Source: a virus (taxonomy: Duplodnaviria > Heunggongvirae > Uroviricota > Caudoviricetes). Taken from it: a stretch of DNA of 6,623 nt. The stretch is from the IMG/VR virus record IMGVR_UViG_3300029181_000086. One strand, given 5' to 3'. Positions 1,490-5,609 of the stretch are shown here, piece after piece; within the stretch, counting starts at the first letter, position 1; each line of letters begins with the position of its first letter. The position numbers and the translations under genes were made by a program. The notes under the pieces are model-generated. The model was not told the DNA's origin. It did no database searches and saw only the letters and a list, made by a program, of their open reading frames with translations.

Positions 1490-1506
1490 TGAAACAGGTG
1501 AGTTGA

Positions 1507-1541
1507 GTTCAAACTGTAGTACAATTCTCTCCAGTTTGAAC
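1507..1541 (+). repeat. Perfect 10-bp inverted repeat in the emrE leader
   Basis: GTTCAAACTG (1507-1516) and CAGTTTGAAC (1532-1541) are exact reverse complements with a 15-nt spacer. Ends 1 nt before the AGGAAA SD-like sequence and 15 nt before the emrE ATG. Confidence 0.6.
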
Positions 1542-1556
1542 AGGAAAGAATATGCT

Positions 1557-1889
1557 ATGAACCCTTATATTTATCTTGGTGGTGCAATACTTGCAGAGGT
1601 CATTGGTACAACCTTAATGAAGTTTTCAGAAGGTTTTACACGGTTATGGCCATCTGTTGGTACAATTATTTGTTATTGTGCATCATTCTGGTTATTAGCT
1701 CAGACGCTGGCTTATATTCCTACAGGGATTGCTTATGCTATCTGGTCAGGAGTCGGTATTGTCCTGATTAGCTTACTGTCATGGGGATTTTTCGGCCAAC
1801 GGCTGGACCTGCCAGCCATTATAGGCATGATGTTGATTTGTGCCGGTGTGTTGATTATTAATTTATTGTCACGAAGCACACCACATTAA
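1557..1889 (+). CDS. emrE: EmrE small multidrug resistance (SMR) efflux transporter
   Basis: 110-aa product MNPYIYLGGAILAEVIGTTLMKF... matches E. coli EmrE as recalled, including the conserved membrane-embedded Glu14 and four hydrophobic helices. AGGAAA SD 9 nt upstream. The ORF-track start at 1503 is a TTG-initiated extension that I do not accept. Confidence 0.95.
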   Translation: MNPYIYLGGAILAEVIGTTLMKFSEGFTRLWPSVGTIICYCASFWLLAQTLAYIPTGIAYAIWSGVGIVLISLLSWGFFGQRLDLPAIIGMMLICAGVLIINLLSRSTPH

Positions 1890-1918
1890 AATAATTTGTT
1901 TCTAAACGACTAAAATAT

Positions 1919-1959
1919 GGAGGCTCTTATATTTATATGAGCCTCGTTTTATGCTTTTT
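1919..1959 (+). terminator. Putative rho-independent terminator downstream of emrE
   Basis: GAGGCTC (1920-1926) pairs with GAGCCTC (1939-1945), 12-nt AT loop, followed by GTTTTATGCTTTTTG. Starts 30 nt after the emrE stop. Confidence 0.45.
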
Positions 1960-2143
1960 GTTAATGTCTTTATTTTTTATGTATTCTTTTGTGCTTTCAA
2001 GATTATGGCGTAAGAAAATTGCAATACGATTATTGTTGTATATTCAAGATAATGTGACCTTAATTGTCTTTTTAAATAAAAAATAAACAAAAATTATATC
2101 CCACCACTAAGGTTTATAAAAGCATACGTTAGCAGGTGTCACC

Positions 2144-3670
2144 ATGAAAAAAGCCATAGCATATATGCGATTTTCATCACCAGGTCAGATGTCTGGCGAC
2201 TCATTAAACCGACAGAGAAGACTTATTGCTGAATGGTTAAAGGTAAATAGTGATTATTATCTTGATACCATAACATATGAAGATTTAGGATTAAGTGCAT
2301 TCAAAGGAAAGCATGCACAATCAGGAGCTTTTTCGGAATTTTTAGATGCTATAGAGCATGGTTATATATTGCCAGGAACTACATTGTTAGTTGAAAGTCT
2401 GGACAGACTTTCAAGAGAAAAAGTCGGTGAAGCGATTGAACGTCTGAAATTGATTTTGAATCACGGTATTGATGTTATAACTCTTTGCGACAATACAGTC
2501 TATAATATTGACTCTTTGAATGAGCCATATTCATTAATAAAAGCCATACTTATAGCACAAAGGGCAAATGAAGAAAGCGAGATAAAGTCAAGTCGGGTTA
2601 AATTATCATGGAAGAAAAAACGGCAGGATGCACTGGAATCAGGTACGATTATGACGGCGTCTTGTCCGAGATGGCTCTCCTTAGATGACAAAAGAACGGC
2701 TTTTGTTCCAGACCCCGACAGGGTGAAAACTATTGAGCTAATTTTTAAACTCAGGATGGAAAGGCGCTCATTGAATGCAATAGCCAAGTATTTAAATGAT
2801 CATGCTGTAAAGAATTTCTCAGGAAAAGAAAGTGCATGGGGACCTTCTGTAATTGAAAAATTATTAGCGAATAAAGCTCTGATAGGTATTTGCGTACCTT
2901 CATATCGTGCAAGAGGGAAAGGGATAAGTGAAATCGCTGGCTATTATCCCAGAGTCATATCAGATGATTTGTTTTACGCTGTACAGGAAATTCGGTTGGC
3001 ACCTTTTGGTATTAGCAATAGTAGCAAGAATCCTATGCTAATAAATCTACTTCGAACAGTTATGAAGTGTGAGGCTTGTGGTAATACCATGATTGTTCAT
3101 GCGGTATCTGGAAGTTTGCATGGCTATTATGTTTGTCCGATGAGAAGATTACATCGATGTGACAGGCCATCAATAAAAAGAGATTTGGTTGATTATAATA
3201 TCATTAATGAATTGCTTTTTAATTGTAGCAAAATTCAACCAGTTGAAAACAAGAAAGATGCTAATGAAACTTTAGAGTTAAAAATTATTGAGCTTCAGAT
3301 GAAAATTAATAATTTAATCGTTGCATTGTCTGTCGCGCCTGAAGTTACCGCTATAGCAGAGAAAATAAGACTATTAGATAAGGAATTACGAAGGGCTTCG
3401 GTATCATTGAAAACTTTGAAGAGTAAAGGTGTAAATTCATTCAGTGATTTTTATGCTATTGACTTAACCAGTAAAAATGGACGAGAGTTATGCCGTACAC
3501 TTGCCTATAAAACATTCGAAAAAATCATAATTAATACGGATAATAAAACCTGTGATATCTATTTTATGAATGGCATTGTTTTTAAACACTATCCTTTAAT
3601 GAAAGTAATATCCGCCCAGCAGGCGATAAGTGCTCTCAAATATATGGTTGATGGTGAGATTTATTTCTAA
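2144..3670 (+). CDS. ybcK: Large serine recombinase (resolvase/invertase-type catalytic domain, recombinase domain, zinc ribbon, coiled coil)
   Basis: 508-aa ORF. N-terminus AIAYMRFSSPGQ fits the serine-recombinase catalytic motif (Y-x-R-x-S-x-x-x-Q). C-terminal Cys cluster CEACGN...YYVCPMRRLHRC and a heptad-like stretch LELKIIELQMKINNLIVALS are typical of large serine recombinases. AGGTG SD 7 nt upstream. AT-rich coding sequence. Confidence 0.9.
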   Translation: MKKAIAYMRFSSPGQMSGDSLNRQRRLIAEWLKVNSDYYLDTITYEDLGLSAFKGKHAQSGAFSEFLDAIEHGYILPGTTLLVESLDRLSREKVGEAIERLKLILNHGIDVITLCDNTVYNIDSLNEPYSLIKAILIAQRANEESEIKSSRVKLSWKKKRQDALESGTIMTASCPRWLSLDDKRTAFVPDPDRVKTIELIFKLRMERRSLNAIAKYLNDHAVKNFSGKESAWGPSVIEKLLANKALIGICVPSYRARGKGISEIAGYYPRVISDDLFYAVQEIRLAPFGISNSSKNPMLINLLRTVMKCEACGNTMIVHAVSGSLHGYYVCPMRRLHRCDRPSIKRDLVDYNIINELLFNCSKIQPVENKKDANETLELKIIELQMKINNLIVALSVAPEVTAIAEKIRLLDKELRRASVSLKTLKSKGVNSFSDFYAIDLTSKNGRELCRTLAYKTFEKIIINTDNKTCDIYFMNGIVFKHYPLMKVISAQQAISALKYMVDGEIYF

Positions 3671-3868
3671 ATAATGATCTCGGATTTTAAGTTATGCTAT
3701 GGTGATAAAGTGCAAGACAGAATTAATTATCTTTGACGAAACTTAATGGGTAATTACTTTGTTTGCTCCCACAAGCGAGTTTTGTACGGCTGTATTGGGG
3801 TAGTAAATGAGCTATACAATCTTAATCATTTGTTAGGTGAGAACTCTTGGTCGCAGATTCAAATACTG

Positions 3869-3960: not shown

Positions 3961-4051
3961 CTAATAATAAAGCAGAGTTTTTAGATAGTATCAATGTGCT
4001 TTGTGTATATTGTGGCAAATAATTGGGTTGGGGGTACAATTGTGATTGCTT

Positions 4052-4081
4052 TTGCATGAACATTGCGCCTTTATGCATAAT
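4052..4081 (+). promoter_or_regulatory. Candidate sigma70 promoter for ybcL-ybcM
   Basis: TTGCAT (4052-4057), 18-bp spacer, CATAAT (4076-4081) with TG immediately upstream. About 55 bp upstream of the ybcL ATG. Pattern match only, in AT-rich DNA where such matches arise by chance. Confidence 0.3.
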
Positions 4082-4134
4082 GAGATAAAGGAATATCAAA
4101 TAAAATAACGATAGGTCATAACAAAGAGGTTTTT

Positions 4135-4686
4135 ATGAAAACACTTATCGTTTCAACTGTATTGGCATTCATAACATTTTCTGCGCAGGCTGCAGCATTT
4201 CAGGTCACTAGTAATGAAATAAAAACAGGAGAGCAACTTACAACGTCTCATGTCTTTTCTGGATTTGGGTGTGAAGGTGGTAATACATCGCCCTCATTAA
4301 CCTGGTCTGGTGTTCCTGAAGGTACCAAAAGCTTTGCCGTAACTGTATATGATCCAGATGCACCTACAGGCAGTGGTTGGTGGCATTGGACTGTTGTTAA
4401 TATTCCAGCAACAGTAACATATTTGCCCGTTGATGCAGGGAGACGTGATGGAACAAAACTGCCGACTGGTGCTGTTCAAGGCCGAAATGATTTTGGCTAT
4501 GCTGGGTTTGGTGGCGCATGTCCTCCTAAAGGAGATAAACCACATCATTACCAGTTTAAAGTATGGGCTCTAAAAACTGAAAAGATTCCTGTAGATTCTA
4601 ACTCCAGCGGAGCGTTAGTTGGTTATATGCTTAATGCTAATAAAATCGCAACCGCTGAGATAACACCAGTTTATGAGATAAAGTAG
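4135..4686 (+). CDS. ybcL: Secreted PEBP-family protein (YbcL-like)
   Basis: 183-aa ORF with AAGAGG SD 8 nt upstream. N-terminal signal peptide MKTLIVSTVLAFITFSAQA with an AQA-A cleavage site. Matches E. coli YbcL as recalled; motifs DPDAP and GWWHW are typical of the bacterial PEBP/YbhB/YbcL family. Confidence 0.9.
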   Translation: MKTLIVSTVLAFITFSAQAAAFQVTSNEIKTGEQLTTSHVFSGFGCEGGNTSPSLTWSGVPEGTKSFAVTVYDPDAPTGSGWWHWTVVNIPATVTYLPVDAGRRDGTKLPTGAVQGRNDFGYAGFGGACPPKGDKPHHYQFKVWALKTEKIPVDSNSSGALVGYMLNANKIATAEITPVYEIK

Positions 4687-4695
4687 GGTGAGAGT

Positions 4696-5493
4696 ATGCT
4701 GGCAAGAGGTAAGACTAACTTAAAGATCGAAGAAATACGGATGCATAAACATCATGAGATTCATAGGGTTAAGCCTCTTATGCCAGCTTTGTGTCGTATC
4801 CGTCAGGGAAAGAAAGTTATCAATTGGGAGACGCATACTTTAACTGTTGATAATAATCAAATAATATTATTTCCTTGTGGTTATGAATTTTATATTGAGA
4901 ATTATCCTGAAGCAGGGCTTTATCTTGCAGAAATGCTTTACTTACCCATTGATTTAATTGAGAGTTTCCAAAAACTTTATACGGTAACTGATCAAATACG
5001 TAACAAAACAAGTTTCTTTTTACCTCAGAATCCTGAGTTAATATATTGTTGGGAGCAACTAAAAACATCTGTTTCCCGAGGCTTCTCAACTAAAATTCAG
5101 GAGCACTTAGCAATGGGCGTTCTACTTTCGTTAGGAGTGAATCATGTTAATCATTTACTTTTATCATATAGTAAACAATCATTGATAAGTCGTTGTTATA
5201 ACCTGCTGCTATCCGAACCCGGCACAAAATGGACAGCAAACAAGGTTGCTCGATATCTCTACATTTCTGTTTCTACATTACATCGCCGTCTAGCAAGCGA
5301 GGGGGTAAGTTTCCAAAGTATACTGGACGATGTGAGGTTAAATAATGCGTTGTCTGCTATACAAACGACGGTAAAACCTATAAGCGAGATTGCCAGAGAA
5401 AATGGTTATAAGTGTCCTTCTCGTTTTACTGAAAGATTTCATAATCGTTTTAATATAACACCAAGAGAGATAAGAAAAGCTTCCAGAGAGTAA
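4696..5493 (+). CDS. ybcM: AraC/XylS-family transcriptional regulator
   Basis: 265-aa ORF starting 9 nt after the ybcL stop, so probably co-transcribed. The C-terminal ~100 aa ([22 protein letters not shown]...[18 protein letters not shown]) has the two-HTH AraC signature. AT-rich. Confidence 0.85.
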
Positions 5494-5557
5494 AAGTGTT
5501 TTAAGAAGGAGCAATTCTATCGATTTTGATTTTGGGAAATCAACACGGCATAATTAT

Positions 5558-5595
5558 GTCACCGGAGCCTGAACAACTCCGGTGACTTCTGCGCT
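5558..5595 (+). terminator. GC-rich hairpin downstream of ybcM (possible terminator or island-boundary structure)
   Basis: GTCACCGGAG (5558-5567) and CTCCGGTGAC (5577-5586) are a perfect 10-bp stem with a 9-nt loop, followed by TTCTGCGCT. The U-tract is weak. Confidence 0.4.
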
Positions 5596-5609
5596 AAACG
5601 GGGACGTTT

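What the first reader, a model, noticed from the sequence alone, without database searches (positions are those of the whole stretch)
1490..5600. AT-rich cargo island (emrE, serine recombinase, PEBP protein, AraC regulator) inserted between ren and the ninB-like gene
In lambda, ren is followed directly by ninB. Here about 4.1 kb of visibly AT-rich DNA (by eye roughly mid-30s to 40% GC against about 50% on either side) separates them. It carries an efflux pump, a recombinase, a secreted protein and a regulator, none of them lambdoid core functions. The right edge coincides with a perfect 10-bp GC-rich hairpin (5558-5586) and the left edge with a 10-bp inverted repeat (1507-1541). This looks like a horizontally acquired moron or nested mobile module, probably silenced by H-NS.
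Basis: partly seen in the sequence, partly recalled or inferred. Interest (0 to 1): 0.6.

Follow-up and report, generated by a model that had tools for sequence, protein, structure and literature searches.

The report
DLP12 prophage cargo island (emrE–ybcM)
This AT-rich 4.1-kb block is the already annotated accessory-gene segment (emrE, ylcJ, ybcK, ybcL, ybcM) of the E. coli DLP12-type lambdoid prophage, sitting in a slot between ren and the NinB-like gene where related phages carry other cargo; it is real but ordinary.

Summary
Window 1454-5524 is 36.3% GC against 48-50% on either side, with maximum-likelihood change points at 1457 and 5557.

The sequence is known: window 1276-6623 is 100% identical to E. 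coli K-12 MG1655 DLP12 (renD fragment to ybcO).

Comparison with lambda and with seven prophages or phages carrying other cargo shows a cargo slot with exact edges:
- Left edge 1453|1454, inside the last codons of ren.
- Right edge 5524|5525.

- The 10-bp hairpin (5558-5586) lies in the conserved nin leader. The phage 82 record already annotates it as a "possible regulator-binding site".
- The left inverted repeat belongs to the emrE module.

The island is a mosaic of three parts: emrE, ylcJ-ybcK (an intact large serine recombinase) and ybcL-ybcM. About half of the E. coli genomes also carry a decayed chromosomal copy next to fliE (emrE-ybcL-ybcM plus porin, no ybcK). All four cargo genes are under purifying selection (dN/dS 0.02-0.12).

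A ybcK-driven nested mobile element is not supported: ybcK sits in the same context in 80 of 80 viral contigs and has no att sites or target duplication.

Published K-12 data support silencing: H-NS binding, very low ybcK RNA, and a Rho/NusG terminator upstream of ybcK.

Verdict: already known, low interest.

The parts
1187..1489 (+). ren. Codons 1-89 (to 1453) are conserved phage backbone; the last 11 codons (1454-1489) come with the cargo.
   Evidence: PHROG 142 Ren-like, E=8e-42. Homology with lambda and with prophages carrying other cargo stops at 1453-1462.
1454..5524 (+). Variable cargo segment (the island proper), 4071 bp, 36.3% GC.
1508..1541 (.). Perfect 10-bp inverted repeat in the emrE leader. 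It is part of the emrE module, not an island edge.
   Evidence: Read from the sequence. Also present upstream of emrE in the chromosomal copy L001, with one mismatch, and in every emrE carrier.
1557..1889 (+). emrE, SMR multidrug efflux transporter.
   Evidence: Pfam PF00893 E=2e-35. 100% identical to MG1655 b0543. dN/dS 0.02 against the chromosomal copy.
1920..1960 (+). Terminator-like hairpin after emrE (GAGGCTC-N12-GAGCCTC, then a T-rich tail), overlapping the ylcJ start.
   Evidence: Read directly from the sequence. Function inferred, not tested.
1937..2086 (+). ylcJ, small ORF of 49 aa.
   Evidence: Pfam PF23688 YlcJ-like, E=7e-36. MG1655 b4733.
2054..2082 (+). Published RpoD-holoenzyme binding site and predicted promoter for ybcK (GTGACC-17-TAAAAA), in a spacer flagged as H-NS-binding.
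   Evidence: PMC3946193 Table 3; located in the window.
2144..3670 (+). ybcK, large serine recombinase of 508 aa with all catalytic and zinc-ribbon residues intact.
   Evidence: Pfam Resolvase, Recombinase and Zn_ribbon_recom. PHROG 95 integrase, E=4e-120. R9, S11, the DRLSR motif and C309/C312/C331/C339 are invariant in 16 homologues. The profile matches A118 integrase over residues 188-470, E=2e-15. dN/dS 0.075.
1897..3979 (+). The 2083-bp segment (ylcJ, ybcK and 310 bp of 3' flank) that is absent from the chromosomal emrE-ybcL-ybcM copy. Its ends share only AATAAT.
3147..3164 (-). Published intragenic PhoB ChIP-seq site inside ybcK, in a region recorded as H-NS-bound. Transcriptionally inert according to the paper.
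   Evidence: PMC10294691 Table 1; located in the window.
4012..4040 (+). Published RpoD-holoenzyme site and predicted promoter for ybcLM (GTGGCA-17-TACAAT), in a spacer flagged as H-NS-binding.
   Evidence: PMC3946193 Table 3. Also found by the consensus scan. Located.
4135..4686 (+). ybcL, periplasmic PEBP/RKIP-family protein with a signal peptide.
   Evidence: Pfam PF01161 E=3e-42. MG1655 b0545. dN/dS 0.08. Role of the UPEC allele: PMC4810123.
4696..5493 (+). ybcM, AraC/XylS-type regulator.
   Evidence: Pfam HTH_18 E=1e-16. MG1655 b0546. dN/dS 0.12.
5525..5707 (+). Conserved nin-region leader (backbone, not island). It holds the palindrome TTGATT-N6-AATCAA (5526-5543), CATAAT (5549-5554), the 10-bp hairpin (5558-5586) and ylcH/orf33 (about 5609-5710).
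   Evidence: Begins at the same base in 10 or more unrelated cargo contexts. The phage 82 record X92588 annotates -35, -10 and a 'possible regulator-binding site' here.
5708..6163 (+). ybcN, NinB/Orf-family gene; first gene of the right backbone.
   Evidence: PHROG 72, E=4e-52. Pfam NinB is weak, E=2e-4. MG1655 b0547.

Best explanation
Window 1454-5524 is the accessory ('moron') segment of a DLP12/phage-82-type lambdoid prophage. It occupies a hypervariable cargo slot between ren and the NinB/Orf-family gene ybcN.

What is shown:
- The slot has fixed edges, after Ren codon 89 and immediately before the conserved nin leader.
- Related phages hold different cargo at the same place.
- The K-12-type content is a mosaic of three modules: emrE (SMR efflux pump), ylcJ-ybcK (an intact large serine recombinase, surplus to the phage's own tyrosine integrase) and ybcL-ybcM (periplasmic PEBP protein plus an AraC-type regulator).
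- The proteins are kept by purifying selection.

What comes from published K-12 work: the genes have RNA-polymerase binding sites in their own upstream spacers, and the block is bound by H-NS. ybcK is also held down by a Rho/NusG-dependent terminator.

What is inferred:
- Content is exchanged between co-resident lambdoid phages and prophages by recombination in the conserved flanks.
- The genes are expressed from the prophage independently of lytic growth.
- The cargo benefits the lysogen rather than the phage.
For: Identity:
- Window 1276-6623 is 100% identical to MG1655 DLP12.
- 667 of 5426 complete E. coli genomes carry the full arrangement, as do inducible phages PhiR68_2, PhiR70_1 and PhiR34_1.

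Slot:
- Lambda has 73 bp between ren and ninB.
- With the same flanks, other phages carry PD-lambda-1 plus Rha (L004), an acyltransferase plus a lipoprotein (L005), TagO (L007), a TIR protein (L020) or small ORFs (L019).
- The edges are exact: 1453|1454 in 8 contexts and 5524|5525 in 10 or more.

Composition: 36.3% GC against 48-50% in the flanks.

Mosaic:
- emrE-ybcK is found with at least 13 different insert sizes (280-2554 bp) to its right instead of ybcLM.
- emrE-ybcL-ybcM is found without ybcK in a decayed prophage next to fliE.

Selection: dN/dS 0.02-0.12.

ybcK:
- Catalytic residues are intact and the architecture is integrase-like.
- Phage Perceval has its own tyrosine Int and Xis.

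Regulation: PMC3946193, PMC10294691, PMC4150792.

Recombination between lambda and DLP12 through shared homology has been shown experimentally (PMC3945230).
Against: - No empty ren|ybcN site was found among ybcN-type prophages; the smallest insert is about 800 bp. 'Insertion' is therefore inferred from lambda, which has a different ninB allele, and from cargo replacement, not from an exact empty site.
- Exchange by flank homology is inferred from the exact shared edges, not observed at this locus.
- Edges this sharp could also reflect selection on the ren reading frame and on the nin leader after illegitimate joins.
- No function for ybcK or ybcM was tested.
- The H-NS and Rho data come from papers on K-12, not from this analysis.
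Confidence: 0.88

Rival explanations
1. Nested mobile element: ybcK, alone or with its neighbours, is a self-mobilising unit. The large serine recombinase would have inserted it into the phage, between emrE and ybcL or at the ren|nin junction, by site-specific recombination.
For: - YbcK has every catalytic and structural hallmark of an active large serine integrase.
- It is under purifying selection.
- A clean 2083-bp difference (1897-3979) separates the prophage from the chromosomal emrE-ybcL-ybcM copy.
- Homologues of 50-56% identity sit at the prophage end, where an integrase would be: next to host genes in Erwinia, and next to a P2-like prophage in Yersinia.
Against: - In 80 of 80 IMG/VR loci, and in every E. 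coli and phage record examined, ybcK is fused to the same emrE block on its left. No second insertion site was seen.
- The ends of the 2083-bp segment share only AATAAT, with no inverted-repeat att half-sites.
- Sequences to the right of ybcK do not diverge at one common point.
- The chromosomal copy also lost ybcN-quuD by plain deletion, so loss of ybcK there is equally likely.
- The outer slot edges are identical in phages that have no ybcK.
Confidence: 0.07
2. Ancestral nin-region genes: the emrE-ybcM block is the original content of this phage lineage. Lambda and the other phages lost or replaced it, so it is not an acquisition.
For: - No truly empty ybcN-type site was found.
- Phage 82, a classical lambdoid phage, carries the ybcM 3' end upstream of its nin genes.
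- YbcK homologues of 42-60% identity lie in the nin region of Atlantibacter and Pantoea prophages.
Against: - GC is 12-14 points below both flanks, with sharp steps at the comparative edges.
- At least eight unrelated alternatives occupy the same slot with identical edges.
- The modules occur in different combinations.
- None of the genes is a phage function.
Confidence: 0.04

Closest known systems
Cryptic prophage DLP12 of E. coli K-12 MG1655 (b0542-b0549: renD, emrE, ylcJ, ybcK, ybcL, ybcM, ylcH, ybcN, ninE, ybcO)
   Same: Window 1276-6623 is 100% identical to NC_000913.3 568034-573381, with the same genes in the same order.
   Different: The window has an intact ren, without the IS3 that splits renD in K-12. 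It also has a different left arm: 1-968 is not at this place in K-12, and 969-1277 is 98.7% identical.
Phage morons, i.e. accessory cassettes between conserved lambdoid genes such as lom and bor of lambda (comparison from general knowledge)
   Same: Located between conserved genes, absent from or replaced in relatives, deviant base composition, own promoter sites, and products that serve the lysogen.
   Different: This is a multi-gene mosaic of about 4 kb, not a single promoter-gene-terminator unit. It includes a recombinase with no known role.
Cargo and defence hotspots of temperate phages (P2/P4 hotspots, PMC9122126; listed, not read here)
   Same: A fixed position with conserved flanks and interchangeable content. 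At this lambdoid slot, relatives carry PD-lambda-1, TIR-domain and SIR2 proteins.
   Different: None of the proteins in this window matches PADLOC defence models. Its content is efflux, a periplasmic PEBP protein, a regulator and a recombinase.
Large serine integrases (A118/LI, phiC31, TP901-1)
   Same: YbcK shares the domain order: catalytic domain, recombinase domain, zinc ribbon and coiled-coil.
   Different: It lies mid-genome in a phage that already has a tyrosine Int and Xis. No att sites were identified, no activity is known, and there is no direct phmmer hit to any solved structure.

Membership tests
DLP12-type lambdoid prophage accessory region | Sequence identity and gene order with MG1655 b0543-b0549 | tested here: met
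   100% identity over 5348 bp; annotation.
Phage moron / cargo cassette | Lies between conserved phage genes and is absent or replaced in close relatives | tested here: met
   Lambda has 73 bp there. Seven or more alternative contents share the same flanks.
Phage moron / cargo cassette | Base composition distinct from the surrounding phage genome | tested here: met
   36.3% against 48.2% and 50.4% GC. LLR 54.6 against a shuffle maximum of 20.2.
Phage moron / cargo cassette | Own promoter and terminator, with expression from the repressed prophage | tested here: inconclusive
   RpoD-holoenzyme SELEX sites lie upstream of ybcK and ybcL (PMC3946193). A terminator-like hairpin follows emrE. The consensus scan as a whole is no better than shuffles: 18 sites against 17.4 expected. 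Expression was not measured here.
Large serine recombinase | N-terminal resolvase domain with the catalytic serine and the DRLSR motif | tested here: met
   PF00239 E=6e-19. R9, S11, E84-R91 and R140 are invariant in 16 homologues.
Large serine recombinase | Recombinase domain, four-cysteine zinc ribbon and coiled-coil | tested here: met
   PF07508 and PF13408. C309, C312, C331 and C339 are invariant. The profile aligns to A118 integrase residues 36-317, E=2e-15.
Large serine recombinase | Cognate att sites and recombination activity | not testable with these tools
   No att-like repeats were found around the gene. Activity needs an experiment.
Recombinase-mobilised nested element | The same unit present at different genomic or phage sites | tested here: not met
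   ybcK is contiguous with the emrE block in 80/80 IMG/VR loci and in all E. coli and phage hits examined.
Recombinase-mobilised nested element | Defined ends (att sites or target duplication) and an exact empty site | tested here: inconclusive
   The chromosomal copy lacks 1897-3979, but the ends share only AATAAT. That copy has other plain deletions too.
H-NS-silenced xenogeneic DNA | AT-rich relative to the host genome | tested here: met
H-NS-silenced xenogeneic DNA | H-NS occupancy of the region | not testable with these tools
   Published for the identical K-12 sequence. H-NS SELEX sites lie in the emrE-ybcK and ybcK-ybcL spacers (PMC3946193). A ybcK-internal position is recorded as H-NS-bound by ChIP-seq (PMC10294691).
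H-NS-silenced xenogeneic DNA | Derepression when hns is deleted | not tested
   Only low ybcK RNA counts were seen (33 and 24; PMC10294691). Rho and NusG mutants raise ybcK mRNA (PMC4150792).
SMR transporter (EmrE) | Full-length match to PF00893 and identity with K-12 EmrE | tested here: met
   E=2e-35 over residues 3-94; identical to K-12.
NinB/Orf family (right flank gene ybcN) | Profile match to NinB/Orf | tested here: met
   PHROG 72, E=4e-52. Pfam NinB scores only 21.7 bits, below the 23.8 cut-off.

The most novel reading that the evidence does not exclude
YbcK may be an active second integrase kept in the nin region of DLP12/Perceval-type phages. Candidate roles are a second integration or excision pathway, or rearrangement of the adjacent variable sub-slot. 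Its conservation (dN/dS about 0.07, all catalytic residues intact) would then reflect a phage-level function rather than hitch-hiking. Homologues at prophage termini in Erwinia and Yersinia suggest the family does act as an integrase there.
Probability: 0.1. Interest if true: 0.5.

Novelty: already known. Interest (0 to 1): 0.15.

Why it matters
As a discovery it matters little. The genes, their prophage location and their H-NS and Rho control are all on record for E. coli K-12.

The comparative picture adds modest value:
- It defines, to the base, a cargo slot between ren and the nin genes of lambdoid phages. Relatives carry defence genes there (PD-lambda-1, TIR, SIR2).
- The Ren C-terminus is swapped together with the cargo.
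- About half of the complete E. coli genomes searched keep only the cargo (emrE, ybcL, ybcM, porin) from an otherwise erased prophage next to fliE. This is a clear case of domesticated phage accessory genes.

The one open biological question is what the well-conserved large serine recombinase YbcK does.

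Tried and rejected
- Searched for an exact empty ren|ybcN site using a joined-flank query in 5426 genomes. None was found; the smallest insert is about 800 bp.
- Looked for att sites or a target duplication at 1897/3979. Only AATAAT microhomology was found.
- Considered integron-like cassette capture by YbcK at a site just downstream of its gene. Rejected: the non-K-12 variants share more than 130 bp after the ybcK stop and differ only further on, by indels. The right edge at 5525 is also the same in phages without ybcK.
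- Window-wide repeat search gave no long direct or inverted repeats flanking the island.
- Rfam search found no family at E<=0.1.
- PADLOC search found no defence-system match for any island protein.
- A direct phmmer search of YbcK against PDB sequences found nothing; only a profile reached A118 and phiC31 integrases.
- The genome-contig scan for YbcK gave one useful distant locus, Atlantibacter. The viral-contig scan returned only E. coli-type copies of 97-100% identity.
- A literature search for 'ybcK' with 'serine recombinase' found nothing.
- The primary YbcL/UPEC paper (PMC3497442) is not held, so the functional residue difference could not be checked.

Full report
**1. What the window is**

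The ORF list and profile searches give this gene order:

| Coordinates | Gene | Note |
|---|---|---|
| 795-1190 | P fragment | truncated |
| 1187-1489 | ren | |
| 1557-1889 | emrE | SMR transporter |
| 1937-2086 | ylcJ | 49 aa |
| 2144-3670 | ybcK | resolvase + recombinase + zinc-ribbon domains |
| 4135-4686 | ybcL | PEBP |
| 4696-5493 | ybcM | AraC-type HTH |
| 5708-6163 | ybcN | PHROG NinB/Orf, E=4e-52 |
| ~6160-6330 | ninE | coordinates approximate |
| 6287-6616 | ybcO | |

A megablast against 5426 complete E. coli genomes found matches in 4633 of them. In 667 genomes one place covers at least 80% of the window. The MG1655 annotation names the region as cryptic prophage DLP12, b0542-b0549. 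Window 1276-6623 is 100% identical to MG1655 568034-573381. The window differs from K-12 in two ways: it lacks the IS3 that splits renD, and it has a different left arm (1-968). The finding therefore concerns a sequence that is already annotated gene by gene.

**2. The observation**

The compositional island is real.
- GC is 36.3% for 1454-5524, 48.2% to the left and 50.4% to the right.
- A two-change-point likelihood fit places the steps at 1457 and 5557. The 2-lnL intervals are 1403-1508 and 5528-5579.
- The log-likelihood ratio is 54.6, against at most 20.2 in 100 block shuffles.

**3. Where the edges really are**

I compared the window with lambda and with prophages or phages that share ren and ybcN but carry other genes between them:
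- PD-lambda-1 plus Rha (L004)
- an acyltransferase plus a lipoprotein (L005)
- TagO (L007)
- two small ORFs (L019)
- a TIR-domain protein (L020)
- an alpha/beta hydrolase after emrE-ybcK (Perceval, L003)
- small ORFs after emrE-ybcK (Turner, L006; O157 strain CV261, L002)

Left edge. Homology stops at the same base, 1453|1454, in eight contexts including lambda. Ren residues 1-89 are shared, and the last 6-11 codons differ with the cargo.

Right edge. Homology resumes at 5524|5525 (within one base) after at least ten unrelated upstream sequences.

Lambda has only 73 bp between ren and ninB. No empty site was found among ybcN-type prophages; the smallest content is about 800 bp.

The island proper is therefore 1454-5524.

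**4. The two repeats are not edges**

The hairpin at 5558-5586 lies 33 bp inside the conserved right backbone. The phage 82 record X92588 annotates exactly this stretch as a 'possible regulator-binding site', downstream of putative -35 and -10 hexamers and upstream of orf33 and orf151. It is conserved in all cargo variants.

The conserved block begins with a palindrome, TTGATT-N6-AATCAA. Its arms are conserved while its spacer varies. CATAAT follows it.

The left inverted repeat (1508-1541) sits in the emrE leader and travels with emrE, including into the chromosomal copy.

**5. The island is a mosaic**

(a) emrE-ylcJ-ybcK (1454 to about 3711) occurs at 96-98% identity in O157 prophages and in phages Perceval, 4A7, Turner and others, with unrelated DNA to its right. 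Among 80 IMG/VR loci carrying ybcK, about 27 continue into ybcL-ybcM. About 50 carry something else, of 13 different lengths from 280 to 2554 bp, before the backbone resumes at 5524-5538.

(b) emrE-ybcL-ybcM without ybcK occurs next to fliE on the chromosome. About 2500 records have their best match at 90-95% identity, and all fourteen sampled rows in that band show this pattern (H11-H24).

The one locus examined in detail (L001) matches DLP12 in three collinear pieces at 87-92% identity:
- emrE
- ybcL-ybcM plus the nin leader
- the quuD 3' end plus the nmpC-type porin

It is a decayed DLP12-like prophage that has kept only cargo.

(c) The difference between the two arrangements is a clean 2083-bp segment (1897-3979). 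Its ends share only AATAAT. The direction, insertion or deletion, cannot be decided.

**6. The cargo is functional DNA**

| Gene | Compared with | dN/dS |
|---|---|---|
| emrE | chromosomal copy | 0.02 |
| ybcL | chromosomal copy | 0.08 |
| ybcM | chromosomal copy | 0.12 |
| ybcK | Perceval copy | 0.075 |

dS between the prophage and chromosomal copies is 0.18-0.38.

**7. The recombinase**

YbcK keeps R9, S11, the ESLDRLSR motif and the four zinc-ribbon cysteines, all invariant among 16 homologues down to 29% identity. Its profile aligns with the recombinase, zinc-ribbon and coiled-coil part of A118 integrase (E=2e-15) and with the catalytic domains of phiC31 and TP901-1 integrases.

The family spans Enterobacterales at 40-60% identity. 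Its members sit in two kinds of place:
- In the nin region of lambdoid prophages: Atlantibacter L011 and Pantoea L017.
- At the prophage end after the tail-fibre assembly gene: next to host lepA in Erwinia, and next to a P2-like prophage in Yersinia. An integrase would be expected there.

Perceval has its own tyrosine Int and Xis, so YbcK is surplus to normal integration.

In E. coli, ybcK never appears outside its emrE context. The sequences to its right do not diverge at one common point. The nested-mobile-element idea is therefore not supported, but it is not excluded either.

**8. Silencing**

Published work on the identical K-12 sequence reports the following.
- RpoD-holoenzyme sites and H-NS SELEX sites lie in the emrE-ybcK and ybcK-ybcL spacers (PMC3946193). 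The two predicted promoters map to window 2054-2082 and 4012-4040.
- A PhoB site inside ybcK (window 3147-3164) lies in a region recorded as H-NS-bound by ChIP-seq. ybcK RNA counts there are only 33 and 24 (PMC10294691).
- A Rho/NusG-dependent terminator lies in the ybcK leader (PMC4150792).
- Hfq binds ybcK DNA in a polyphosphate-dependent manner (PMC10954037).

I could not inspect ChIP tracks or hns-deletion expression directly.

**9. Mechanism**

Shown:
- a fixed slot with exact edges
- interchangeable content
- deviant composition
- selected coding sequences

Inferred:
- Content is exchanged by recombination in the conserved flanks between co-resident lambdoid phages and prophages. Such exchange between lambda and DLP12 has been demonstrated elsewhere in the genome (PMC3945230).
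- L004 carries a second, 80%-identical copy of the nin leader ahead of an internal cassette. This fits the leader acting as a portable recombination substrate.
- The cargo benefits the lysogen. EmrE is an efflux pump (general knowledge). The YbcL allele of uropathogenic strains suppresses neutrophil migration (PMC4810123).

**10. Verdict**

The object is already known and its mechanism is conventional. Rfam and PADLOC searches added nothing.

Residual interest lies in three points: the unknown role of YbcK, the base-exact slot edges, and the conserved palindromic leader.

Noticed in passing
window 5526-5586: The conserved backbone starts exactly with a palindrome, TTGATT-N6-AATCAA, whose arms are conserved and whose spacer varies. 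CATAAT follows, then the 10-bp hairpin, whose loop CCTGAACAA is nearly invariant. There is one copy per locus. It looks like a regulated promoter or operator for the ylcH-ybcN-ninE-ybcO-rusA genes, and it is degenerate in the chromosomal remnant that lost those genes.
   Followed up: partly
L004 (phage PhiR26_1) 3515-3669 and 5450-5638: This phage has two copies of the nin leader block (80% identical to each other's counterpart in the window). One lies ahead of an internal Rha cassette and one ahead of ybcN, as if cassettes were stacked by recombination in this block.
   Followed up: partly
window 1453|1454 (Ren codon 89/90): The C-terminal 6-11 residues of Ren differ with each cargo type, while residues 1-89 are conserved. 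The cargo junction therefore lies inside the ren reading frame.
   Followed up: yes
L001 (E. coli 24AR0180, between fliE and yedK), 6001-9700: A decayed DLP12-like prophage keeps only emrE, ybcL, ybcM and an nmpC-type porin at 87-92% identity. The pattern recurs in all 14 sampled rows of the band of about 2500 records at 90-95% identity. It appears to be phage cargo retained after the phage genes were lost.
   Followed up: partly
window 969/970 and 1276/1277: At 969/970 the lambda-like region left of exo (DksA-type zinc-finger, DUF1317 and DUF1382 genes, minus strand) is fused directly to the 3' part of gene P. The immunity and replication-origin region is deleted, so the prophage is defective. 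Window 1-968 is not at this place in K-12. The K-12 IS3 insertion point in renD corresponds to window 1276/1277.
   Followed up: partly
L015 (Erwinia rhapontici) 7001-8548; L013 (Yersinia enterocolitica) 7001-8530: YbcK homologues (52-56% identical) lie at the very end of lambdoid prophages after the tail-fibre assembly gene. In Erwinia the gene is about 1.4 kb from host lepA. This suggests the family serves as the prophage integrase in those lineages.
   Followed up: no
window 3869-3881 / 3906-3918: A perfect 13-bp inverted repeat (AAAATACGTGACA / TGTCACGTATTTT, 24-nt spacer) lies in the 464-bp ybcK-ybcL spacer. That part of the spacer is specific to the K-12-type arrangement. No explanation was found.
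   Followed up: no
H26 (E. coli SRY149), H91/L020 (E. coli EH10-18-47), L004: Related prophages carry SIR2-family, TIR-domain and PD-lambda-1 proteins. The TIR and PD-lambda-1 genes lie in the ren|ybcN slot. The SIR2 row (H26) was seen only as an annotated feature under the match and its position was not checked. The slot therefore also serves as an anti-phage defence hotspot in some lineages.
   Followed up: partly
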